Shown one piece after another: positions 6,377-21,301 of a stretch of 32,058 bases of DNA. Both the position numbers and the translations under genes were made by a program. This DNA comes from Candidatus Heimdallarchaeota archaeon (GTDB lineage: Archaea; Asgardarchaeota; Heimdallarchaeia; Heimdallarchaeales; Heimdallarchaeaceae): positions 1 to 32,058 of the forward strand of contig JABCTC010000038.1 of the NCBI GenBank assembly GCA_018238545.1, written 5' to 3'. Each line of letters starts with the position of its first letter. Within the stretch, counting starts at the first letter, position 1. Under the pieces are notes generated by a model, which worked only from the letters and a program-made list of their open reading frames with translations, searched no databases and was not told the origin of the DNA.

Positions 6377-7765
6377 TCAAAGGTTCTTCATCATCTTATC
6401 AATACCAGGTTCAACTCCTTGTAGAACCATATAACCTCTAGGTCCTTCTCTAGTTGTAATCTCTCCTGCAATATTTGTGAGCATTATAGCTCTTACTTCA
6501 TCTACATTTCTAGTATGGCCTAAAGCCCAACTCAGTTTTGTGTAAGCTGCTGACGGTAACATGTTTTCACCTTCTATGACGCCTCGTGCTAGCATATCTC
6601 TCCCAGTCTCATAAACTCTCAATTGGGCGAAACCGAACAGAGGTTCTACAACCATAATAACAGGAATTTCTTCTTCCTTACACCTTTCTAAAGCAGGATA
6701 GATATCTGTTCCAACATGTCCTAAACCAGTTCCTATCATTACTACACCATGATAACCAAGATCAACCATAGATTCTAACATATCAGGATTCATTCCGGGA
6801 TAGAAATACAGCATCCCCACTCGAGAATCTGTCTTTGTATCTAGATAGAAATCTTCTTTTGGCCTTCGAGGAGAAATATCATCTTTGAACCATGTAACTC
6901 CAGAATCATCAATCTTACCAAGAGGGATATCTGATAAGGTTCTAAAAGTATCACGTCTAGCGGAATGCATTTTTCTGCATCTGGTAGCTCGATGGATTAG
7001 ATTGTAACTGTCACTGGGAGTACCGTGCATAGCGATTACTACCTCACCAAAGTTTTCATAACCAGAAAGTTGAGCAGCATACAATATGTTTCTAGGTCCA
7101 TCAGAAGAGGGACGATCAGAGCTTCTTTGACTACCAACTAACACAACGGGGACAGGTAAGTTGCGTAGGAAAAATGATAAAGCACATCCTGTCACGCACA
7201 TAGTGTCTGTTCCATGACCTATTATGATCCCATCTGCACCAGATTCTATCTCTTTAGCTATAGCTTCAGCTGTTTTAACCCAATACTCTGGTCGAAAATT
7301 TTCACTCAGTATTTGATAAAGTGTTTTTGGGGTCAGATTTACAGTTGAAATTAGTTCAGGAACTGCAGAAAATAGTTCATCTGGAGTAAAAGCTGGAAGG
7401 ACAGCGCCAGTTCTGTAATCCAATCGCGATGCAACTGTTCCACCAGTGCCCAGAAGAGTTACATTAGGCAAATCCTTCTTAAATTTCACTTCAATATGAG
7501 GTAGTTCATAATTTCCTTTATGAAATCCTATTTCCTTAATGGTTGCTTCTTCATCAATTAAGACACCCAAATTGTAACCTGTATCAACTTTCAATGTAAC
7601 ATAATCATCATCAGTATGTTGACTCCGAGGTAGTAGTAATCCTTCATATTCCGCATCACCTTTCTTAATGACAACTTTACTCCAGGTTCTGATTTTATCT
7701 TTAATCAATCTTTCACGCAATGCTCCTCTGTAACCTTCAGGTTCGCCATTACCATTATTACTCAT
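6377..7765 (-). CDS. gatD: Glutamyl-tRNA(Gln) amidotransferase subunit D
   Basis: Asparaginase motifs GTGGTVASRLDYRTGAV, HGTDTM, VGSQRSSDRPSSD and RKMHSARRDTF; N-terminal GYNLGV domain; adjacent to gatE. Start placed at 7765 because AGGAGG (7775-7780) lies 9 nt upstream; 7774 is the alternative. Confidence 0.95.
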   Translation of the reverse strand: MSNNGNGEPEGYRGALRERLIKDKIRTWSKVVIKKGDAEYEGLLLPRSQHTDDDYVTLKVDTGYNLGVLIDEEATIKEIGFHKGNYELPHIEVKFKKDLPNVTLLGTGGTVASRLDYRTGAVLPAFTPDELFSAVPELISTVNLTPKTLYQILSENFRPEYWVKTAEAIAKEIESGADGIIIGHGTDTMCVTGCALSFFLRNLPVPVVLVGSQRSSDRPSSDGPRNILYAAQLSGYENFGEVVIAMHGTPSDSYNLIHRATRCRKMHSARRDTFRTLSDIPLGKIDDSGVTWFKDDISPRRPKEDFYLDTKTDSRVGMLYFYPGMNPDMLESMVDLGYHGVVMIGTGLGHVGTDIYPALERCKEEEIPVIMVVEPLFGFAQLRVYETGRDMLARGVIEGENMLPSAAYTKLSWALGHTRNVDEVRAIMLTNIAGEITTREGPRGYMVLQGVEPGIDKMMKNL

Positions 7766-7766
7766 C

Positions 7767-9713
7767 TTAACCATCCTCCTTTACAAAAATCATTTGTCTA
7801 ATTTTCTCAGCCAACATTTTACCTTCAAAATGGTAACTAAGTTCCTTTAGAACTTCTCCTGTAATCTTGCTTAGAATCAAATTTTGATATTCTTCAAACT
7901 CTTGAATTTTGTTTAGATCATATTTGTCAATCTTTGATTGGATTATCATTTCTACTTTCTCATCAGAAATTTCAGGCAAGTCAAATTTTTCCTTAATCTC
8001 CTCTTCTGTAGACTGAGGATTTTCAATTAGATAATTCAGAACTAACTCAACTTGCTCTTTGAAAATAATTTTTTTAGATAAAACACTTGCAAGTTTATCA
8101 ATCATTTCAGTTGTTAGAAGGAGATCCTTTCTCCTGGTAGCTCTAGGTAGGATGATAAGAAGTTTATAAGAGAGATTGCCATCCAACTGCAATTGTTCAG
8201 TATATTCGATGAATTTTGCTAGTTTTTCATCTCTAATTAATAAGTCGACATGGTTGTGATTAAAACCATACTTCTCATGTAATTCATCAAAAACTTCCCA
8301 TGGTTTCTTACCAATATTTTTCGTCAATTCTTTAATTCTATCTAAGGAAATAACAATGGGTGGGGTATCTGTATCAGGATAAATACGGTCTTTTCCATGA
8401 ATCACTCTCAAGAACTCTGAGTTACCATTGGGCAGAAATCTTCTAGTCTCTTGAGGTACACCGTCAATTGCCATCTTTACACGCTCAACTATCTTCTTCA
8501 TTGCGTGCAGAGCTCGTTTTTCTGGTCCTTCAACTACAATGAAGGCATCGTTTTCCTTTGGATTAAGAACCTTACAAATCTTGGAATACAGATCGTGATT
8601 TATTTTCACATCACTGGGATAATCGGAATTTGCTCTTAACGCACCATCTTCAATTTCATCACTATGGAATTGATTCTTTCTAGGGATGCCAGTTATCAGC
8701 ATACTTTTTTCGAATATCTCAAGACCAAAATCCTTGTTGGGTTGCACCTCAATTCCAAAAAGACCCTTCATTTTTGGAAAAATCGTTGCATAAACCTTCT
8801 CATTAGTATCAAATAATTGTGAGATATCAACATAAGTGTGTTCAAAATCCTCCTTCTTTATACCACGTTGTAACATCGTATTTTTTATTTCTATGAGCGC
8901 ATGTTGTCTTACTACTTCATGACGACACATTATATCAAACTTTTCTAAATCTTGAACTCCCTTAAGTTCTACTCGATCGCCTCCAGCGATGCTTATGTTA
9001 ACGTCTTGTCTAGCAGCACCACTCCCTCTTCTACCAATCTTACTTATTCTTAACACACGACCAATTTGCTTGGCAGTTTCTAGAAGTTCTTCAGGATTAT
9101 CCACATCCATATATTCTGTAATGATTTCTGTTAATGGAACCCCTAATCGATCTAAGTTGTAATAGACAGTTCTATTGGAAGTATCTTCCCAATTCACCCG
9201 TCTTGCAGCATCTTCCTCAATATGAACGTTGGTAATTCGAACTTTCTTACCGTTAACTGGAACCCATCCATCTCTTGCACAAATGAAAGTTCTTTGGAAA
9301 CCTGTTGTAATAGATCCATCGAGATATTGTTTTCTGTTAACAACTATTTCCTCAGCAAAAGCTGTACAATCAAAATAAGCCGCAAGAATAAAACCCTTTT
9401 CCATCATTTCCAAATCTGGAAAGAAAGGAGGTGTTTCATCCATATCATAGGTACATGTGTTTCTTTCATTAGCAAGATAAATGACCTTGTAGCCTTTCTC
9501 AAATTCCACAAGCATGCCAGGATCAAAATCTCCCATCTCACCTAACACAGGACGAAAATAGCGATAGAAACTATAATCCATATTTTCAGGGTTTTCTTCA
9601 AGAATAGGGGGGCAATTACAAAACAGTTTTCTTTTGGATTTCAACTGGTGATGAACTTCGAGTCCAGCATGGAATCCTAATTCTTTGAAATCGAGATTGT
9701 AAGGGTCTAACAT
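7767..9713 (-). CDS. gatE: Glutamyl-tRNA(Gln) amidotransferase subunit E
   Basis: GLEVHHQL, KLFCNCP, RKQYLDGSITTGFQRT, IEEDAAR, LDRLGVPLTEI, RQDVNISI, RVELKGVQ, GVPQETR and RIYPDTDTPPI. Confidence 0.95.
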   Translation of the reverse strand: MLDPYNLDFKELGFHAGLEVHHQLKSKRKLFCNCPPILEENPENMDYSFYRYFRPVLGEMGDFDPGMLVEFEKGYKVIYLANERNTCTYDMDETPPFFPDLEMMEKGFILAAYFDCTAFAEEIVVNRKQYLDGSITTGFQRTFICARDGWVPVNGKKVRITNVHIEEDAARRVNWEDTSNRTVYYNLDRLGVPLTEIITEYMDVDNPEELLETAKQIGRVLRISKIGRRGSGAARQDVNISIAGGDRVELKGVQDLEKFDIMCRHEVVRQHALIEIKNTMLQRGIKKEDFEHTYVDISQLFDTNEKVYATIFPKMKGLFGIEVQPNKDFGLEIFEKSMLITGIPRKNQFHSDEIEDGALRANSDYPSDVKINHDLYSKICKVLNPKENDAFIVVEGPEKRALHAMKKIVERVKMAIDGVPQETRRFLPNGNSEFLRVIHGKDRIYPDTDTPPIVISLDRIKELTKNIGKKPWEVFDELHEKYGFNHNHVDLLIRDEKLAKFIEYTEQLQLDGNLSYKLLIILPRATRRKDLLLTTEMIDKLASVLSKKIIFKEQVELVLNYLIENPQSTEEEIKEKFDLPEISDEKVEMIIQSKIDKYDLNKIQEFEEYQNLILSKITGEVLKELSYHFEGKMLAEKIRQMIFVKEDG

Positions 9714-9933: not shown

Positions 9934-10464
9934 ATGTCAACCTACAAGTATACCTTCAAGATTCTATTGCTCGGAGATGGAGCTGTCGGAAAAACAAGTT
10001 TAGTTCAGAGATTTATACACAATAAATTCCAAACTGGTTATCTTATGACAATAGGAATGGAACCATATTCAAGATTTGAAACTATCAAGGACACAAGAAT
10101 ATGCCTCCAACTTTGGGATATTGCTGGACAAGATCGTTTTGCGTCAATGAGACAAATCTTTTTCAAAGGCAGTTTGGGAGCACTTGTAACATACGATATT
10201 ACTCGACGACAATCATTTGAAAATCTTAAAACATGGATAAATGAAGCTCAAAATGAAAGCCCTCGCATTATGCTTATGCTTGTAGGAAATAAAAACGACC
10301 TAGATGATCTTCGTGACGTATCAACTGAAGAAGGTAAGAAATTTGCCGAAGAATCTGGTTGTATTGGTTTCATTGAAACTAGTGCTAAAAATGGCGTCAA
10401 TGTCGCTGAGGCTTTCTTAGCAATGGGAGAAGAAATCCTAACTAGTGTTGAAACTCAAGATTAA
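9934..10464 (+). CDS. Rab-like small GTPase
   Basis: G1 GDGAVGKT, G2 TIG, G3 WDIAGQ, G4 NKND, G5 ETSAK; RabF-like LQLW, RFASM, FFKGS and TYDIT; no C-terminal prenylation cysteine. Confidence 0.92.
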   Translation: MSTYKYTFKILLLGDGAVGKTSLVQRFIHNKFQTGYLMTIGMEPYSRFETIKDTRICLQLWDIAGQDRFASMRQIFFKGSLGALVTYDITRRQSFENLKTWINEAQNESPRIMLMLVGNKNDLDDLRDVSTEEGKKFAEESGCIGFIETSAKNGVNVAEAFLAMGEEILTSVETQD

Positions 10465-10985
10465 TCCCAATACATCTCGTCTTTGTTTTCTGTAAAAACA
10501 GTTTGTTCATTAGAGATGGATGGATCTACTGCAGCAAGCTGTTTTCTGATTCTTCTAGAGCTGATTATTATCCCTTTCTCATCGTAAACAAAGGGTACAA
10601 CTAAGATAATTAACTGGTCAAGTTTATTCATGGTTCTCAGTTTATTGATATCGACGGCTGTGGGATATGTTTCTTCTGTTACAATTATCCCTTCAGCATC
10701 GGGAGAGGAAAGTGCAAAACCATATCTATCATCAATAGCTATTATCTCAAATTTTTTACAGCCTCTCAGTATAAGATATTCGCGTAAAGTCTCCTTTCTT
10801 GCTTCAAAAGGCTGCATTAAATGGACATGTTTGTCACTTCGACGCAAACGTTTGGCAAAACCCTCTGTTGTGATTCCAACTCTTACAAAATGACCAAAAC
10901 TAACAGCTGCTTCCAACAAAGCCTTGTGCCCTTGATGAAGATGATCAAAAGTTCCTCCCAAAATTACTTCATCAACCCATGGCAT
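10461..10985 (-). CDS. coaD: Phosphopantetheine adenylyltransferase (archaeal/eukaryotic type)
   Basis: GGTFDHLHQGHKALL, IDDRYG, IIVTEET, INKLR and ISSRRIR. Confidence 0.88.
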   Translation of the reverse strand: MPWVDEVILGGTFDHLHQGHKALLEAAVSFGHFVRVGITTEGFAKRLRRSDKHVHLMQPFEARKETLREYLILRGCKKFEIIAIDDRYGFALSSPDAEGIIVTEETYPTAVDINKLRTMNKLDQLIILVVPFVYDEKGIIISSRRIRKQLAAVDPSISNEQTVFTENKDEMYWD

Positions 10986-11069: not shown

Positions 11070-11157
11070 TGGTGCCGCGAGCCGGAATTGAACCGGCGCC
11101 TAGGGAATTTTGCTGAAATATCCACAATCCCCAACGCTACCATTACGCCATCGCAGC
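11070..11157 (-). tRNA. tRNA-His(GUG) with a 14-nt intron at 37/38 (11108-11121) and encoded CCA
   Basis: Reverse complement folds as: acceptor GCTGCGA/TCGCGGC, D arm GCGT-AATGGTA-GCGT, anticodon arm GGGGA-TT-GTG-G[ATATTTCAGCAAAA]T-TCCCT, T arm GCCGG-TTCAATT-CCGGC, then A-CCA. Mature length is 74 nt. Confidence 0.93.
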
Positions 11158-11257
11158 AATATAATACCTTCATTCTGCCACTCTTTTTTAAAAATTGTTG
11201 TTGGATACTAATCAATCTAATGGGTACGTTTTTATTTATTGCTTTTTTTCTTTCCTC

Positions 11258-11737
11258 ATGAGCACTGGAAAGATTATTGTGCAATTACATAACTTCAGCA
11301 GTATCAATCTTTGTCGAGAATTTGCTAAAATTTCTTTAGGTTTAGGAGCAAGAGATATAATTTTCACTAAAGCTGGTGGAACTGGTGCCACCACAGGTGT
11401 TCCCATTGCACAAAAGTTGGCACATGCAAAGAAAGCTAATGTTCTGTATCTTCAAGAAATCGAAGATGCCATTGAGCTTATCTCACCAGATGAAGTTTAT
11501 CTTTTCATAAAACGACCTTTCTCAAAAGAAACTTATAACCCCACTAACATCGTTGAAAGTTATAAGGAAGGTAAAACCATTCTACTCATCTTTGGTGGGG
11601 CCGATCCTGGAATAACAAAAAGAGAGTTAGAATTAGGGGTTCCAGTTTATTTCAACAAGACTAACGAGTTAGGCTGTTTAGGAGAAGTTACTTTGGCACT
11701 TTATTTATTAAGAAATCTAATTGAAGATGAAGATTAA
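11258..11737 (+). CDS. DUF2122-like protein (SPOUT-fold putative RNA methyltransferase; often labelled 'RecB-family nuclease')
   Basis: VQLHNFSS, FTKAGG...GVPIAQKLA, IEDAIEL, IFGGADPGITKRELELG and terminal knot-like ELGCLG motifs. ATG at 11258 is preferred over TTG at 11195. Confidence 0.7.
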   Translation: MSTGKIIVQLHNFSSINLCREFAKISLGLGARDIIFTKAGGTGATTGVPIAQKLAHAKKANVLYLQEIEDAIELISPDEVYLFIKRPFSKETYNPTNIVESYKEGKTILLIFGGADPGITKRELELGVPVYFNKTNELGCLGEVTLALYLLRNLIEDED

Positions 11738-12270
11738 ATTACATCTTCTTCTTGAATGATTAATCTTACTAGATTTTTGAATGCTAGTTCCGCATTAGTT
11801 CCGTTTTTAGCAGAGGTAAAAAGAAATTCTGCATTTGTGTGATCTTCAACTATTTCTTTCATGTCATCTTCTGTTACTTGAAGTTCTGGTATATCACATT
11901 TGTTTGCTAAGAAAATAATGGGTTTCACCCCTACAACTTCAATAAATGACTCAACCCAAGATTTGAGATTTTCATAAGTAGTCATATTTGTTGCATCACA
12001 GACCGCAAGTGCACCTTTACTCCCAAAATAATACTTACTTCTAACTTTTTTGAACACTTCTTGACCCCCTACATCCCAAATTGCTAATGTTACTAAATAA
12101 TTAAGATATTCTACATCCTTCTTCATGATTGTTGTTCCTAGAGTAATTTGATAGGAAGGATCAAACATATTTGTAACAAAACGCCTAACTAATGATGTTT
12201 TACCTACTCTTCCATCACCAATAAGTACTATTTTACTTGTAGAATGTATTTTCTTAGACACCAATATCAC
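11734..12270 (-). CDS. Rab-like small GTPase
   Basis: GDGRVGKT, TLG, WDVGGQ, YYFGS, NKCD and TSAK; GTG start uncertain; no prenylation motif. Confidence 0.9.
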   Translation of the reverse strand: MILVSKKIHSTSKIVLIGDGRVGKTSLVRRFVTNMFDPSYQITLGTTIMKKDVEYLNYLVTLAIWDVGGQEVFKKVRSKYYFGSKGALAVCDATNMTTYENLKSWVESFIEVVGVKPIIFLANKCDIPELQVTEDDMKEIVEDHTNAEFLFTSAKNGTNAELAFKNLVRLIIQEEDVI

Positions 12271-12322: not shown

Positions 12323-13177
12323 TTATTTTTCGTAATAAAAAGCAACAGCACCATATCCTACCACACTGCTTTTGTCTCCAGATGTATCGCCTGAAGTAGC
12401 GTACCTTAGCAGCCTAGCGTTTTTTCTTCCCATTCTTCTAGCTGCTTCAATAGTACCAGCTATTGGTCCATAACCGCACATTGAAACGTTTAATCGTAAT
12501 CTAATATCATACATCTCCTTTGAATCCATTTTTTCAATAGCTTCTAGTATCAAATTGTCCTTCTTAGTAGCTGTATCATGAGATTCAAAATGAGTAAAAT
12601 CGCTACTCGCTATAACAAGAACGTTTTTTCCATGGCTCACTTTTGCTATAATTTCACCTAGCGTCATACTTGCATCATAACCTTGATTGAGCATAGCAAT
12701 AGGTACGAAATTAAACTGTTTATCGAAGATATATTGTAAGAAAGGGAGTTGAACCTCTATCGAATGTTCTCGTGCATGAGATTCATCACTTTTTTGTATC
12801 AAGCTTGAAGAATTTACTAGTTCCTCAAGTAGTTCATGGTTAACTTCAACTTCACCTAAGGGAGTTTTCCATGACTGAACCTTATTTGGTACACCGATAT
12901 CAACACCTAATCCAGTATGATTTGGTCCGAGGATAATTACAGTACTAGGGAGAGGATATTTACTGAGTTCCAAATAACTCCAAGCTGCAATGGGACCGCT
13001 ATACATGTACCCAGCATGTGGAACCAGAAGGTAAGGAAATGGATCAGTTGCAACTTGGTCCTTATTTGGGAGTTGTTGAGGACCTAAAGAGCTTGTGAAA
13101 CTATTTTCAATTGATTGTAGGAGATGGTCTGGATTACTAGGATAAAATGAACCAGCATATTGAGCGTTCCTTATCAT
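12323..13177 (-). CDS. MEMO1-family protein (AmmeMemoRadiSam system protein B)
   Basis: AGSFYP, PHAGYMYSG, GPNHTG, WKTPLG, EHSIEVQLPFLQ, ASSDFTH, MCGYGP, YATSGD and VVGY. Confidence 0.92.
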   Translation of the reverse strand: MIRNAQYAGSFYPSNPDHLLQSIENSFTSSLGPQQLPNKDQVATDPFPYLLVPHAGYMYSGPIAAWSYLELSKYPLPSTVIILGPNHTGLGVDIGVPNKVQSWKTPLGEVEVNHELLEELVNSSSLIQKSDESHAREHSIEVQLPFLQYIFDKQFNFVPIAMLNQGYDASMTLGEIIAKVSHGKNVLVIASSDFTHFESHDTATKKDNLILEAIEKMDSKEMYDIRLRLNVSMCGYGPIAGTIEAARRMGRKNARLLRYATSGDTSGDKSSVVGYGAVAFYYEK

Positions 13178-15574: not shown

Positions 15575-18500
15575 TTATTTCACCAAAATATTTGTATTAA
15601 TGCCGTTTACTTTTTTAATGGTAACTAACGGAGCATTACCACTATGTGCTGGGGAAATGGTTTCTAAAGCATTGATAATATAGTTAAAAGACCCCTCAGT
15701 ATGAACCCATGGAGCTATATTTAGATTCTTAACAATAAGCTGCTTCTCATCATGGGACTCAATTTTGCATTGGGCGGCTAATTCCTGGTTTAGCAGAATT
15801 AAATAGTTATCTCCGGAGATATCGAACCTTTCAGGTAAGTCATTTCTTAGCAAAGAATGAGCTACATCTGTTGGATGAATAACATAGAATCGTTTTCTAT
15901 CTTTTTCCGAGGAATAATCCCTCGAAGCTTCAAACTGTTTCTCGAGCATAATTAAATCGTCATAATTCTCTAAAGTAATATAGTAAAAACTCAAATTATC
16001 CTCTATAAACCTTCCACCGAATATTTCTTCCTCTTCAACTAAAGTGGATAATATTTCTTTGATTTTTATCTTTGTTAAAATAACAGGGATAAATGCGTGT
16101 TCAACTATCTGGTTCTCAGAGGACATCCCTAAGCTGTAAACTATATCTCTTACATACCTTCTTTTAATGACTGTTAAGTCATCATCAAATTCTGGGATAA
16201 ATTTTGAAATATCCCAATATTCTTGAGGGTGATATGTAGTACTAATTGACTTTACTCCAACAAGCATATTTGTTTCTAATAGGCGTAAGGAGGATTTCAG
16301 CGCTGTTCCAGCTCCTGTCCACTTATGGGATAAATCTTGAATATTAGAAGTTCCTTTTGTTATAAGTTTCAAGAGTTCCTCATGTTCTGTTTTGAGTTTT
16401 CTTCTTTTCCTCAAACCACTTTTTCTGTAGCGAGCAAATATTAAAGAGTATAATTTGTCACCTTGACAAAGAATCTTCTTTTCCTCTAATAATTTGTTAA
16501 CTAAAAAGGCAATTATTGCGTTCATTGTTTCAGGAAATCTTGTGATAATCGCTTCAAAACTTAACACTCCAAAATGGTTTATTAAGGATAATAAACTGGT
16601 TTCATTTAATGCTGGAGAATCTTTTCTTAACCAGATTTTATCCATAACATATTTAGATATAATATTTTTTGGAAAAATTCGGGTTACTGTATCTCCACCA
16701 ACCAAAGTATCTTGAATCAAAGTAAAGCCTGTTTTAATCAAGGAATCTTTGATGAATTTATTCGCTGTTGATAGAACTGATTTTCCATTTATATCTTCTA
16801 TTTGTAAACTGAGCACACGATGAATCTTTCGCGTATAAGAGACAAGTTCTGAGGCTATTTTTTGAAGCAGAAGGAAATTGTAAGCAACTATGTCATCGAG
16901 TTGCAAATTATAGATCTGTAGATACTTTCCACGATGAAGCTTATACTCAACTGAACCAACAACCTCACCATCCAGAAGTATAGGATCTATTTTCCCTTCT
17001 CCATAAACATCCCGAATATGAAGTCTTAAACCTAATTTTGTAAATGGATCAGAACGTGGAAGGATAAGTGTTTTCTCATCTTCATGTAGTGAGAGGTTGA
17101 TGAAATCTGCTTTTAGTTTAGAGATAGTTTCAAAACGCTTAGAAGTCAAATAATAATTGGTTTCTCTTGTTGTGAGCTTCTTTTCGATTATTTTCTTTTG
17201 TTTAATTAAATCACGAATATGTTTCTCAACATCACTATATTTGAATCCAGAGATGTGAGTAAGCTCTATCAATGATACTGGACCTAACGACTCAATTAGT
17301 TTATTCAAAATGAATTGGATACTTTTGTCATAATCAGGTAATTTATCCAATGTGAAATATCTGGAAGAAATATCATAAACATTCGGTATAAATTGCTTTG
17401 GTAGAAATGAATCAATAGCAATAGACTTTCTCACAAGATGAAGTGTTTTGTCAAGAATCATAATACTTTCCTGTACGATGTCCTCATCAAGATCAATATA
17501 TTCAACCAACTCTCTTCTTGTTAATGGTCCATACTTTTGAAGTGTATTGAGAACTTTCTCCTCAACTTTAGATAATTCGAACGTTTCTCTGTATGCAACA
17601 TAATAATAGGGGAAATACGCTCTACTCACATATGATAATCGATTATGACTAAATCTTCCTTGAATGATTTCATTTTTTTCCACAAGTTCTCTTACCCAAT
17701 CAATATCATAATCTTTAATTCTAAACGCCAAGGAACTCAAATCTGCAATAGAACCAAAGTCATCTAATAGATACAATATACTTTCTTTTCCAATAAGAGC
17801 CTGTTTAAAATAAGTATCAACAGTGAAATAATAGTGAATGAAATTTAGTTCTTCTGAAGTTAATAATAGTGAACCTTGTTTTCGATTACTCAAATTCCTT
17901 AGTAATTCTCTATCTTCAAGTCTGATATATTGAGGTTCTAGTGTAGCGGCAATAATTTGCCCTTTCAGAATCCTATTCTTTTGCTCTAATTCCATAAGAG
18001 TTCTTGATATTTTCTCTTGGTCTAGAAGAAGGTATTCAACTATATCACTTGTAGATGAGGGACCGTTAATTTTTAGATAATTTAAAACAATTTTCTCCAA
18101 ACAAACTTCAGGATCTAGTTTTCGGGCTTTAATTCTAAACGATTCTGGAACAAAATCTTCTATTGAAATATAATTCCAAGTTGTTTTTCCTTTGTATGTC
18201 TCGAAGTCTATCCGAGTTATTAGCATTGCTCGCTCGAGTTTTTCAAGATTTAACTTAATTTCCTGTTCTTGAAGATCAAGTTCCTCCGTGATTTTCAATA
18301 GCGAAATTGGATATTTTTCTTTTATTAAATCAAGAATTTTTTTATCTTTTTCTGAAAGATCAATTGATTTTAAGTAAATGTTCCAATAGATGGGAAAATC
18401 CTCTAAAGGTATAGTTCTCTGCTCTGTTTGCGAGATGTGAATCTCCATGAACTCTTTATTGTTATGGAGAGCAAAAACCCACAATTTAATTTGCTTGGGA

Positions 18501-21301
18501 TCAGAAATACAGCGGTGATATATACTAGGAGGTTTTTTATCTATTGTTCTTATTGGAGAAATTGCTTTGATAGCATGTCTCAGCTGTTTAAGAGAAGAGA
18601 TAGGGAGTTCTTCATTTCTGTAACTACGATTGTTAAAGATGCTATCTACTAATTCCTTCCTAAAAAGTATCTCTTTTGTGCCTTCCTTTCCAAAAACCTT
18701 GGACAGAACCTGTTGGTGTAATTCTCTAAGTAAAGCACTTCTATCAGAAATCTTAACGATATCAGCGACACCTAACAAAACGATGCCATGTGCAAAAGGG
18801 CTAGGAATATCTGTTAAAGGAGCTATTTTGTATGTATATTCTCCTTTTTCAAGCTTCTTAATAACGTTGTAAGAATTTTCTAGATCCATGTAATCCCGCA
18901 AGATTTCTCGATATGTTTCTTTAATGACACAGAAAGAATCTTGTGTTTTCAGAGTTGGGAACAACCTTCGTGCATACATGGTTTGCCTAGAAACAGGAAT
19001 GTATTTGTTACCGCTCCTTCTTAAGATCATAAAAGCTCTATTTGCAACATGTCTAAATCGTGTTTGGAAAAGTTCAGTGTTTATGATAGCTTGTTTGACA
19101 AGATTTTCCAAATCGTCTGAAGAAATCAAGGTTGGAATATTTGAGGTATCATAGATTTTGCCAGTTGGTAGTATCAACAAGAAACCGTTATCATTTACAG
19201 CTGAAGCTACATCAGCATCAAGTTCTTTGCCAATGGAAAAAGCAAATGCTCGTGCAAGAGCATCATTAACCCTCCTTCCGAAGTAAGCATGAAAAACTAT
19301 GGTCATTCTTCCTTGAGGGTCTAAAAATGACTCTATTAGTAGAGATTTTTCGTTTGGAATAATATTCAAGAAGAGTTGCTGTTCCTTCACATAATCAACA
19401 ATCGTTTTTGCAATTATCTCATCAACTTTAAATGAGGCTTGAATCCATTCCATTGTTTCTTTGGTTTTCTCTTTCTGAATTCTCTGAGCAACAACATCAA
19501 TAAATCTGCCAATTTGTTGAGATAATTCAAATGATCTAGGTAGTTCTTCTCCAACCCAGTTAGGTATAGTTGGTCTTCTTCCGAATGACTCGGAAACTAC
19601 GACACGTGATCCAACTGTTCGTTTGAACTGGTAAGAATGACTTCCTAATACAAAAACATCTCCAGGAGTAAGTCTTTCAACAAACTTTTCTGAAAGAACA
19701 CCTATTCGAGTCCTATAAGTTTCAAGTTCAACCCTGTAATTTGAATTTTCAGGAATTGTACCGAGATTAGTGTAGAATATTAACCGAGAATTTCTTTTCT
19801 TTCCAAACGCTTTTTCTTTATGATCATACCAAATTTTTCGGTAAACTTTCTGCTCTTCAATATCTAGATTATAGCCACCCAAATACTCTAACACATTAAT
19901 ATAATCAACGAAACTAAGCGTTCTGTAATTATATGAACGTTTAATCATCGTGTAAGCTTCATCTACATTCCATCTTTTTGTTATTGACATCCCAACTATA
20001 AACTGAGCAAGAACATCAAGACAGTTTTGAGGAATCTGAACTTTGTCCAACACATGGCTATAAGCACTTTTGGTCAGCACTGCACATTCTATAGCATCAT
20101 CTCTACCAGTTACAAGGAGTCTTCCGCGTGCAATTCTATCAAGAGCATGACCACTACGACCTACTCGTTGAAGATACTTTGCAACTGTTTTAGGAGATCC
20201 TATCTGTGAGACTAACTCAACGCTACCTATATCTATCCCCAGTTCTAAAGAAGTTGAAGTTACAGCTGCAAGTAATTCATTATTTTTCAACCTATCTTCA
20301 ACATCTAACCTGATTTCTCTCGATAAACTAGAATGGTGAACAGCTATAAGAGGTGCATATTCATCTCCAAGAAACTCTTTGAGTTTGAAAGCAACACTTT
20401 CAGCTCCTTTTCTCGTGTTTGTGAAAATAATTGATGTTTCATGGTCTAAAGTAAGATCAGCTAGAACGGAGTATATCCCTTCTTGAACCATAACATAGGG
20501 AGTATGAAGTAGATCTTTCACCGGGCTTATTACTTCAAGATCCATTTTTCTTTGTGGGGGAAGATTAGCTATGTAGCAATCGTTCTCTACACCATTATCA
20601 TCTCTTCCAACAAGAAAACGAGCTATTTCTTCAATAGGTGCTTGTGTTGCAGATAATCCAATCTTAGTAAACTTTTTCTCAACAAGTTGAGTCTGAAGAT
20701 ATTCTAAACATAAAGATAAGAAAACACCTCTCTTGTTTGAACTAACTTCGTGAATTTCATCTAGTATAACCCAACGTACACTTTTCAGATGTTGGGAGAA
20801 CTTTGGAGAAGTTAAAATTAACCCTAAGCTCTCAGGAGTTGTAATTAATATATGAGGAGGAGTCTTCAACATCTTCACACGCTGAGATTGAGGAGTATCT
20901 CCTGTCCTAACATCAACTCTTATTTTAGGCACAACAATATTGTTTGCAGCTGCAAGATCTTGAATTCCTTGTAAAGGTTCTTCCAAATTTTTTCTTATGT
21001 CATTCCCTAAAGCTTTGAGAGGGGAAATATATAGGACATATATCTGATCCTTCAGTTTCCCTTTGGTAGACTCGATGTAAAGCTCGTTAATTGCAGCAAG
21101 AAAAGCAGCAAAGGTTTTTCCTGAACCAGTTGAGCTGAAAATGAGTGTGTTCTTCTGTTCGTGTATAAGTGGAATAGAATACAATTGTGGAGGTGTAAAT
21201 CCTGCAGGGAATCTAGAGGTAAACCAATCTTTTATTTCCTCAGCTAGAAAAGAGAAAATGGAATCAGCTGTAGATGGGTTATCTAGATAATGCAGAGTCA
21301 T
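15575..21301 (-). CDS. lhr: Large Lhr-family SF2 helicase with a ~1040-aa C-terminal extension of HTH_42/AlkZ-like repeats
   Basis: TGSGKT, YISPLKAL, RTGDT, TTPESL, DEIH, GLSAT, FTNTR, HHSSL, SLELGIDIG, QRVGRSGH and the Lhr-specific LDVLAQ, GTIP, PNWVGE, GRRVNDAL and PSPFA motifs. The core ends near aa 870. Confidence 0.93.
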   Translation of the reverse strand: MTLHYLDNPSTADSIFSFLAEEIKDWFTSRFPAGFTPPQLYSIPLIHEQKNTLIFSSTGSGKTFAAFLAAINELYIESTKGKLKDQIYVLYISPLKALGNDIRKNLEEPLQGIQDLAAANNIVVPKIRVDVRTGDTPQSQRVKMLKTPPHILITTPESLGLILTSPKFSQHLKSVRWVILDEIHEVSSNKRGVFLSLCLEYLQTQLVEKKFTKIGLSATQAPIEEIARFLVGRDDNGVENDCYIANLPPQRKMDLEVISPVKDLLHTPYVMVQEGIYSVLADLTLDHETSIIFTNTRKGAESVAFKLKEFLGDEYAPLIAVHHSSLSREIRLDVEDRLKNNELLAAVTSTSLELGIDIGSVELVSQIGSPKTVAKYLQRVGRSGHALDRIARGRLLVTGRDDAIECAVLTKSAYSHVLDKVQIPQNCLDVLAQFIVGMSITKRWNVDEAYTMIKRSYNYRTLSFVDYINVLEYLGGYNLDIEEQKVYRKIWYDHKEKAFGKKRNSRLIFYTNLGTIPENSNYRVELETYRTRIGVLSEKFVERLTPGDVFVLGSHSYQFKRTVGSRVVVSESFGRRPTIPNWVGEELPRSFELSQQIGRFIDVVAQRIQKEKTKETMEWIQASFKVDEIIAKTIVDYVKEQQLFLNIIPNEKSLLIESFLDPQGRMTIVFHAYFGRRVNDALARAFAFSIGKELDADVASAVNDNGFLLILPTGKIYDTSNIPTLISSDDLENLVKQAIINTELFQTRFRHVANRAFMILRRSGNKYIPVSRQTMYARRLFPTLKTQDSFCVIKETYREILRDYMDLENSYNVIKKLEKGEYTYKIAPLTDIPSPFAHGIVLLGVADIVKISDRSALLRELHQQVLSKVFGKEGTKEILFRKELVDSIFNNRSYRNEELPISSLKQLRHAIKAISPIRTIDKKPPSIYHRCISDPKQIKLWVFALHNNKEFMEIHISQTEQRTIPLEDFPIYWNIYLKSIDLSEKDKKILDLIKEKYPISLLKITEELDLQEQEIKLNLEKLERAMLITRIDFETYKGKTTWNYISIEDFVPESFRIKARKLDPEVCLEKIVLNYLKINGPSSTSDIVEYLLLDQEKISRTLMELEQKNRILKGQIIAATLEPQYIRLEDRELLRNLSNRKQGSLLLTSEELNFIHYYFTVDTYFKQALIGKESILYLLDDFGSIADLSSLAFRIKDYDIDWVRELVEKNEIIQGRFSHNRLSYVSRAYFPYYYVAYRETFELSKVEEKVLNTLQKYGPLTRRELVEYIDLDEDIVQESIMILDKTLHLVRKSIAIDSFLPKQFIPNVYDISSRYFTLDKLPDYDKSIQFILNKLIESLGPVSLIELTHISGFKYSDVEKHIRDLIKQKKIIEKKLTTRETNYYLTSKRFETISKLKADFINLSLHEDEKTLILPRSDPFTKLGLRLHIRDVYGEGKIDPILLDGEVVGSVEYKLHRGKYLQIYNLQLDDIVAYNFLLLQKIASELVSYTRKIHRVLSLQIEDINGKSVLSTANKFIKDSLIKTGFTLIQDTLVGGDTVTRIFPKNIISKYVMDKIWLRKDSPALNETSLLSLINHFGVLSFEAIITRFPETMNAIIAFLVNKLLEEKKILCQGDKLYSLIFARYRKSGLRKRRKLKTEHEELLKLITKGTSNIQDLSHKWTGAGTALKSSLRLLETNMLVGVKSISTTYHPQEYWDISKFIPEFDDDLTVIKRRYVRDIVYSLGMSSENQIVEHAFIPVILTKIKIKEILSTLVEEEEIFGGRFIEDNLSFYYITLENYDDLIMLEKQFEASRDYSSEKDRKRFYVIHPTDVAHSLLRNDLPERFDISGDNYLILLNQELAAQCKIESHDEKQLIVKNLNIAPWVHTEGSFNYIINALETISPAHSGNAPLVTIKKVNGINTNILVK

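What the first reader, a model, noticed from the sequence alone, without database searches (positions are those of the whole stretch)
11070..11158. tRNA-His with eukaryote-like identity: A73 and no encoded G-1
Seen: the discriminator base (11073) is A and the -1 base (11158) is T on the coding strand. Established: bacterial and most archaeal tRNA-His have C73 paired with G-1. Eukaryotic cytosolic tRNA-His has A73 with G-1 added non-templated by Thg1, and some alphaproteobacteria use A73 without G-1. Inference: this archaeon either has eukaryote-style non-templated G-1 addition or a G-1-independent HisRS, which bears on where the eukaryotic system originated.
Basis: partly seen in the sequence, partly recalled or inferred. 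Interest (0 to 1): 0.7.

Follow-up and report, generated by a model that had tools for sequence, protein, structure and literature searches.

The report
Asgard histidine tRNA lacking extra G
This Heimdall-group Asgard archaeon has a single histidine tRNA without the extra 5' G that marks nearly all histidine tRNAs, has no known enzyme to add it, and carries a remodelled histidyl-tRNA synthetase, which points to an undescribed archaeal recognition rule and not to the eukaryotic system.

Summary
Observation confirmed. Window 11070-11157 (-) is an intact tRNA-His(GUG) with a 14-nt intron, A73 (11073), encoded CCA and T at -1 (11158). It is the only His tRNA found in a 92%-complete Heimdallarchaeaceae genome. 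A73 holds in 26/26 family genomes read; -1 is free (T15, A13, G1, C1 in 30 genomes of this type). Asgard C73 genes have G-1 in 29/29; outside Asgard 184 C73 versus 1 A73. No Thg1/TLP in this genome or in 82 genomes of its class, two of them single-contig. In every genome where both were read, one roughly 500-aa HisRS clade went with A73: it has a 55-60-residue helical insert and substitutions at the structurally defined G-1 contacts. Best reading (0.75): G-1-independent charging, as in Caulobacter and Trypanosoma but independently evolved; not tested biochemically. The eukaryote link is weak: this HisRS is rejected as sister to one eukaryotic cytosolic HisRS (AU p 1e-11), Hodarchaeales keep G-1:C73, and A73 occurs with three separate Asgard HisRS clades. 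No paper found. The scan noted the same state before on Loki-, Hermod- and other genomes.

The parts
11070..11157 (-). tRNA-His(GUG) gene, 88 nt with intron, 74 nt spliced, perfect 7-pair acceptor stem G1-C72, encoded CCA (11072-11070)
11073..11073 (-). A73 discriminator base
   Evidence: invariant in contigs of four studies; A in 26/26 family genomes
11158..11158 (-). Position -1 = T (no encoded G-1); could pair with A73 in the precursor
   Evidence: free in relatives
11123..11125 (-). GUG anticodon, preceded by U32 U33 and followed by G37
11108..11121 (-). 14-nt intron at the canonical 37/38 site with a bulge-helix-bulge motif; intron-less relatives show the same exon junction
11184..11194 (-). 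TATA-like T5A6 run 27-37 nt upstream of G1; would give a short 5' leader to be cut by RNase P (inferred, not tested)
   Evidence: sequence; archaeal RNase P RNA present on contig C125

Best explanation
The gene makes the cell's only histidine tRNA. The precursor is spliced at the bulge-helix-bulge intron and cut by RNase P at the ordinary +1 site, since there is no G-1:C73 pair to shift the cut. Nothing adds a G afterwards. The mature tRNA has a plain 7-pair acceptor with A73 and is charged by a remodelled HisRS (genome contig C119, locus L002:799-2301, 500 aa) that no longer needs G-1. That enzyme probably leans on the GUG anticodon and on new acceptor-stem contacts from an enlarged insertion domain. 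SHOWN: gene structure, single copy found, lineage-wide A73 with free -1, no Thg1/TLP found, RNase P RNA present, co-occurrence with one HisRS clade, the residue changes and the insert. INFERRED: the 5' end of the mature tRNA, G-1-independent charging, reliance on the anticodon, any role of the insert.
For: (1) A73 and non-G at -1 go together: in 30 genomes with this tRNA/HisRS type -1 is T15, A13, G1, C1, close to the background of other tRNAs here (T22, A9, C9 of 40), while 29/29 Asgard C73 genes have G-1. (2) Thg1 (PF04446) absent from G000, 0/46 in the order, 0/82 in the class, including single-contig H. aukensis and its sister genome; control positive; 16/399 in the phylum; Thg1C also negative. 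(3) HisRS is bimodal in the class: A73 families f1, f3, f4, f7 carry a ~500-aa type, C73 families f5, f6 a ~440-aa type; the long type is one clade, 100/100, and in family f12 it lies beside an A73 tRNA-His. (4) Thermus G-1 contacts (PMC4357726): Arg115 is Thr117 here (T/S/G in 63/63 long-type, R/K in 89/131 nearest short relatives); Arg122 is Lys124 (K 48, R 15, versus R 130/131); the Gly72-Gly73 pocket is Glu75-Lys76 (a Gly in 10/63 versus 116/131), as Caulobacter has Asp-Asp. (5) A 55-60-residue all-helical insert (about residues 205-263, pLDDT 82-96) lies in the domain that clamps the acceptor stem. (6) Precedent: Caulobacter, Acanthamoeba, Trypanosoma (PMC3064791, PMC3561963, PMC4338351); the nearest solved structures are trypanosome and Thermoplasma HisRS.
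Against: No RNA or enzyme data. Lys124 is still basic, Gln119 and (in this genome) Lys13 are kept, so a 5'-phosphate contact is not excluded. The pocket residues are not diagnostic: some C73/G-1 Asgard enzymes also lack both glycines or the Arg115 equivalent. The genomes are kin, so the long-type/A73 association is one or two events, not many. The anticodon-binding domain shows no obvious new feature. The genome is 92% complete.
Confidence: 0.75

Rival explanations
1. RNase P cuts one base upstream and leaves the encoded base (U here, paired with A73); HisRS needs only an extra 5'-phosphorylated nucleotide, not G.
For: U-1:A73 pairs in the folded precursor. Aeropyrum pernix HisRS accepts A-1 and C-1 (PMC9976931) and Nanoarchaeum HisRS loses only about 2-fold with A-1 (PMC10100707). 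A basic residue is kept at the Arg122 position.
Against: -1 is A in 13 of 30 genomes, where it cannot pair with A73, and T is no more frequent than before other tRNAs of this genome (15/30 versus 22/40). The pocket glycines are replaced by large residues.
Confidence: 0.11
2. Eukaryote-style maturation: G-1 is added opposite A73 after RNase P cleavage, by a Thg1 too divergent to detect or by an unrelated enzyme, and HisRS still needs G-1.
For: The gene-level state (A73, G1-C72, free -1) is the same as in eukaryotic cytosolic tRNA-His. Thg1-family genes exist in 16 Asgard genomes.
Against: No Thg1 or Thg1C match in 82 class genomes, including single-contig ones. The two Thg1-positive genomes whose tRNA was read have G-1:C73 (G273, G306). 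Archaeal TLPs add U, not G, opposite A73 (PMC3245924). The HisRS is changed at the G-1 contacts and is not of the cytosolic eukaryotic type.
Confidence: 0.08
3. Artefact or spare gene: a base error, or a canonical G-1:C73 gene lying in the unassembled 8% of the genome.
For: The genome is 91.8% complete and tRNA genes are often unassembled.
Against: A73 in 26/26 family genomes and no C73 gene in any of them, including single-contig H. aukensis; no variant in contigs of four studies; stems and intron motif intact.
Confidence: 0.02

Closest known systems
G-1-less tRNA-His / HisRS pair of the alphaproteobacterial RCS clade (Caulobacter crescentus; PMC3064791, PMC4357726)
   Same: A73, no encoded G-1, no Thg1, Gly-Gly pocket replaced by larger residues, HisRS with inserts.
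   Different: G1-C72 here, not G1-U72; the motif 2 Gln is kept (Gly in Caulobacter); the insert is in the insertion domain, not the anticodon-binding domain; archaeal gene with an intron; a different HisRS subfamily (inferred: Caulobacter HisRS itself was not in my trees).
G-1-independent HisRS of Trypanosoma brucei and Acanthamoeba castellanii (PMC4338351, PMC3561963)
   Same: No Thg1, Watson-Crick 1-72 pair; trypanosome HisRS is the nearest solved structure and also lacks the Arg115 equivalent.
   Different: Only about 25% identical; trypanosome HisRS keeps Gly-Gly and Arg122, lacks the insert, and its tRNA has U73.
Eukaryotic cytosolic system (A73, non-templated G-1 added by Thg1, G-1-dependent HisRS)
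   Same: Gene-level A73, G1-C72 and unencoded G-1.
   Different: No Thg1 found; HisRS has the LRPE / motif-2 Gln type rather than the LRYD type; grouping with a plant cytosolic HisRS is rejected.
Archaeal C73 tRNA-His with encoded G-1, or with templated G-1 addition by a TLP (Methanopyrus, Pyrobaculum, Methanothermobacter; PMC3245924)
   Same: Archaeal tRNA body, 37/38 intron, RNase P present; HisRS related to Thermoplasma and Nanohaloarchaea enzymes.
   Different: A73 instead of C73 and no TLP, so neither route to G-1 is available.

Membership tests
tRNA-His gene (archaeal, intron-bearing) | Cloverleaf with U33-GUG-R37 loop | tested here: met
   intron-less homologues
tRNA-His gene (archaeal, intron-bearing) | Bulge-helix-bulge intron at 37/38 | tested here: met
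   (outer helix short)
Canonical prokaryotic tRNA-His | Encoded G-1 paired with C73 | tested here: not met
   T at -1, A73
Archaeal TLP route | C73 plus a Thg1-like gene | tested here: not met
Eukaryotic cytosolic system | A73 with unencoded G-1 | tested here: met
Eukaryotic cytosolic system | Thg1 gene | tested here: not met
   0/82 genomes of the class; G000 91.8% complete
Eukaryotic cytosolic system | HisRS of the cytosolic eukaryotic clade | tested here: not met
   human 124 bits versus Thermoplasma 220; AU p 9.8e-12 with one plant cytosolic sequence
Eukaryotic cytosolic system | G-1 present on mature tRNA | not testable with these tools
   needs 5'-end RNA sequencing
Caulobacter-type (RCS clade) pair | A73, no G-1, no Thg1 | tested here: met
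   (gene level)
Caulobacter-type (RCS clade) pair | G1-U72 wobble pair | tested here: not met
   G1-C72
Caulobacter-type (RCS clade) pair | Motif 2 Gln118 replaced by Gly | tested here: not met
   Gln119 in 63/63
Caulobacter-type (RCS clade) pair | Gly-Gly G-1 pocket lost | tested here: met
   Glu75-Lys76
G-1-independent tRNA-His/HisRS pairs (functional class) | HisRS charges tRNA-His without G-1, using the anticodon | not testable with these tools
   needs aminoacylation kinetics; indirect support only

The most novel reading that the evidence does not exclude
The G-1-less, A73 state was ancestral in the Heimdallarchaeia line near the root of eukaryotes (it is found in both the order of this genome and family f7, and the Hodarchaeales HisRS groups with Firmicutes and Woesearchaeota sequences, as a replaced gene might). 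Eukaryotes would then have inherited A73 from an Asgard ancestor that did without G-1, later taken on a G-1-dependent HisRS and turned a templated TLP into the non-templated Thg1. This would explain why eukaryotes add G opposite A.
Probability: 0.15. Interest if true: 0.85.

Novelty: new variant of a known kind. Interest (0 to 1): 0.58.

Why it matters
G-1 is taught as a nearly universal histidine identity element, with known exceptions only in one alphaproteobacterial clade and some eukaryotes; reviews state that archaea use C73 and place the switch to A73 in early eukaryotes (PMC3245924). Here whole Asgard families break the rule with their own HisRS subfamily, and A73 appears with three HisRS clades in the phylum, so the identity rule has been rewired repeatedly among the closest relatives of eukaryotes. 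It is directly testable: the HisRS can be expressed, and Ca. Lokiarchaeum ossiferum (an enrichment culture, own knowledge) also has A73, no encoded G-1 and no Thg1 match. It may also supply a new orthogonal HisRS/tRNA pair.

Tried and rejected
tRNA-Pro(UGG), the intron-blind ARAGORN call: rejected, it would need G33 and leaves the loop unformed. Second 'His' on C49: a CAT tRNA with two introns. Sequencing runs: no RNA holder listed. Sigma-70 promoter scan: not suited to archaea. Neighbourhood: PPAT-like nucleotidyltransferase, DUF2122, two Rab-like GTPases, Memo, GatDE; no sign that any adds G-1 or belongs with the tRNA; HisRS is on another contig. Loss of Gly-Gly or of Arg115 as a stand-alone marker: rejected, both occur in some C73 enzymes. 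D-arm likeness to eukaryotic tRNA-His (human sequence from memory): the same arm is in C73 genes such as G162, so it says nothing on A73. P0326, a long unnamed HisRS outside the clade: no DNA available. Paper searches with Asgard terms found no report; subscription journals are largely outside the library. The tRNA pattern found only 146 of 399 Asgard genomes (multi-intron genes are missed; 13 rows unlisted), so phylum-wide proportions are not reliable.

Full report
Observation. On the minus strand the gene starts at 11157 (G1) and ends with an encoded CCA at 11072-11070; 11158 is T and 11073 is A. Rfam gives a tRNA at 53.6 bits with a GUG loop and an insertion. Intron-aware ARAGORN calls His(GUG) with a 14-nt intron, which I place at 11121-11108, the canonical 37/38 site; the precursor folds with a bulge-helix-bulge there, and intron-less relatives show the same junction. 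The Pro(TGG) call is an artefact of ignoring the intron. Contigs from four studies cover the gene and list no other letter at 11073 or 11158. No other His tRNA was found in the 3.63-Mb, 91.8%-complete genome.

Organism. The genome's HisRS (L002:799-2301, 500 aa) is 88-95% identical to proteins named Ca. Heimdallarchaeaceae or Heimdallarchaeota, and genome G015 of the same family is Ca. Heimdallarchaeum aukensis. By the names on their HisRS, family f4 is Kariarchaeaceae and f5 is Hodarchaeales (B3_Heim, Hodarchaeum). I could not name f3, f6, f7 and f12 with certainty.

Distribution of the tRNA state. A73 is present in 26 of 26 f1 genomes read, in f3, f4 and f7 of the same class, in f12, and in Loki-type f19 and f21, including Ca. 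Lokiarchaeum ossiferum. C73 is present in f5 (16/16), f6 and at least eight other Asgard families. Where -1 was read, C73 genes have G in 29/29. A73 genes that go with the long HisRS have T15, A13, G1, C1 (one degenerate-looking copy in G085 left out), and the six Loki A73 genes have no G. The other 40 tRNAs of this genome have T22, A9, C9 at -1, so -1 looks unconstrained. Outside Asgard, a sample from the phylum of a Desulfurococcales genome gave 72 His-like matches, all C73, and a sample from a second archaeal phylum gave 112 C73 and one clear A73 (G668); these are hand counts from the tables. A73 is therefore rare in archaea and concentrated in some Asgard lineages.

No adding enzyme. Thg1 (PF04446) is not found in this genome, in 46 genomes of the order or 82 of the class, among them two single-contig Heimdallarchaeum genomes; it is found in 16 of 399 Asgard genomes and in the control. 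The C-terminal family is also negative. The two Thg1-positive genomes whose tRNA I read have G-1:C73. Archaeal TLPs need C73 and add U opposite A73 (PMC3245924). An archaeal RNase P RNA is present, and a TATA-like run 27-37 nt upstream suggests a short leader (inference).

The synthetase. Within the class HisRS is bimodal: A73 families carry a type of about 500 aa (44-99% identical over residues 1-200), C73 families a type of about 440 aa (30-37%). Two genomes of the order, G010 and G043, carry other types; G010 has a U73 gene and no tRNA-His was found in G043. The long type is one clade (100/100) and only a handful of 50%-identity clusters match its profile in one piece. In the Thermus HisRS-tRNA complex Arg115 and Arg122 bind the G-1 phosphate and Gly72-Gly73 of the other subunit make room for G-1; Caulobacter has Asp-Asp there (PMC4357726). 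Here these are Thr117, Lys124 and Glu75-Lys76. Across 63 long-type proteins: T/S/G 63, K 48 / R 15, a glycine in 10; across 131 nearest short relatives: R/K 89, R 130, a glycine in 116. The insertion domain, which clamps the acceptor stem, is 159-164 residues against 102-109 in C73 Asgard enzymes; the extra 55-60 residues are predicted as confident helices. These changes fit loss of G-1 recognition but do not prove it: some C73 enzymes also lack the glycines or the arginine, and Gln119 and a basic residue at 124 are kept.

Mechanism. Most likely (0.75) the tRNA is cut at +1, stays without a -1 base and is charged by a G-1-independent HisRS that relies on the anticodon and new acceptor contacts, as shown for Caulobacter, Acanthamoeba and Trypanosoma (PMC3064791, PMC3561963, PMC4338351). 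The main rival (0.11) is retention of the encoded -1 base, since some archaeal HisRS read the phosphate more than the base and U-1 can pair with A73; the many A-1 genes speak against it. Addition of G by an undetected enzyme (0.08) and an artefact (0.02) are less likely.

Link to eukaryotes. The long HisRS is closest to Thermoplasma and trypanosome structures (220 and 190 bits, human 124) and groups with Nanohaloarchaea and plant-organelle enzymes. A plant cytosolic HisRS falls on the other side of starred branches, and forcing it together with the long type is rejected (p-AU 9.8e-12; only one cytosolic sequence was available and its branch is long). The Hodarchaeales enzyme is the one nearer to human HisRS (219 bits), yet Hodarchaeales have G-1:C73. 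In a tree of 71 Asgard HisRS the A73 label needs three changes in every bootstrap tree; this counts changes on the HisRS tree and cannot tell gains from losses or gene transfers. So the eukaryotic pair is not simply prefigured here. Inheritance of A73 alone stays possible (0.15), since the place of eukaryotes relative to Hodarchaeales is disputed (PMC10307638, PMC12222021; abstracts and titles only).

Novelty and verdict. Four searches of the held literature with Asgard terms found no description; reviews give C73 for archaea. It works like the known G-1-independent pairs but fails the Caulobacter-specific tests (U72, Gly118) and the eukaryotic ones (Thg1, HisRS clade): a new variant of a known kind. 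Earlier notes of this scan reported the same state in Loki- and Hermod-type genomes; the figures above are my own. Interest 0.58.

Noticed in passing
L285 (G010:C30, about 10840-10975, minus strand) and L219:234-1616 (-): The one genome of family f2 in the same order has a tRNA-His with U73 and A at -1, extra introns, and a very divergent HisRS about 6 kb away that lacks the motif 2 Gln and Gly; U73 recalls Trypanosoma brucei.
   Followed up: partly
L300 and L296 (G668:C74:25958-29698): A non-Asgard archaeon has an A73 tRNA-His with C at -1, 2.3 kb from a 515-aa HisRS of yet another type with an acidic G-1 pocket; looks like a linked, possibly transferred G-1-less pair.
   Followed up: partly
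L090:1980-2026, L099:3850-3896, L138: Three small bacterial genomes (two labelled Gammaproteobacteria, one Uhrbacteria) have A73 tRNA-His without G-1 and with C72, and each encodes two HisRS genes.
   Followed up: partly
L263, L264, L265, L266: Within one Loki family (f19) A73 tRNA-His goes with two unrelated HisRS types; in G133 and in Lokiarchaeum ossiferum the HisRS gene is 2 and 10 kb from the tRNA-His gene.
   Followed up: partly
L233, L234: In family f12 a multi-intron A73 tRNA-His that ARAGORN misses lies directly upstream of the long-type HisRS.
   Followed up: yes
genome G000, all tRNA genes: The tRNA genes all appear to encode CCA (one truncated Phe call aside); none of 40 has G at -1 or C73; many carry one or two introns, several at non-canonical sites that mislead ARAGORN.
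   Followed up: no
window 9934-10464 (+) and 11734-12270 (-): Two Rab/Ras-like small GTPases flank the tRNA locus, with a Memo-like gene at 12323-13177 and GatD/GatE at 6377-9713.
   Followed up: no
window 15575-21301 (-): A 1908-aa open frame, not examined.
   Followed up: no
P0443 (1276 aa): An unnamed protein fusing a HisRS domain to a DEAH/HA2 helicase; could be a read-through of neighbouring genes.
   Followed up: no
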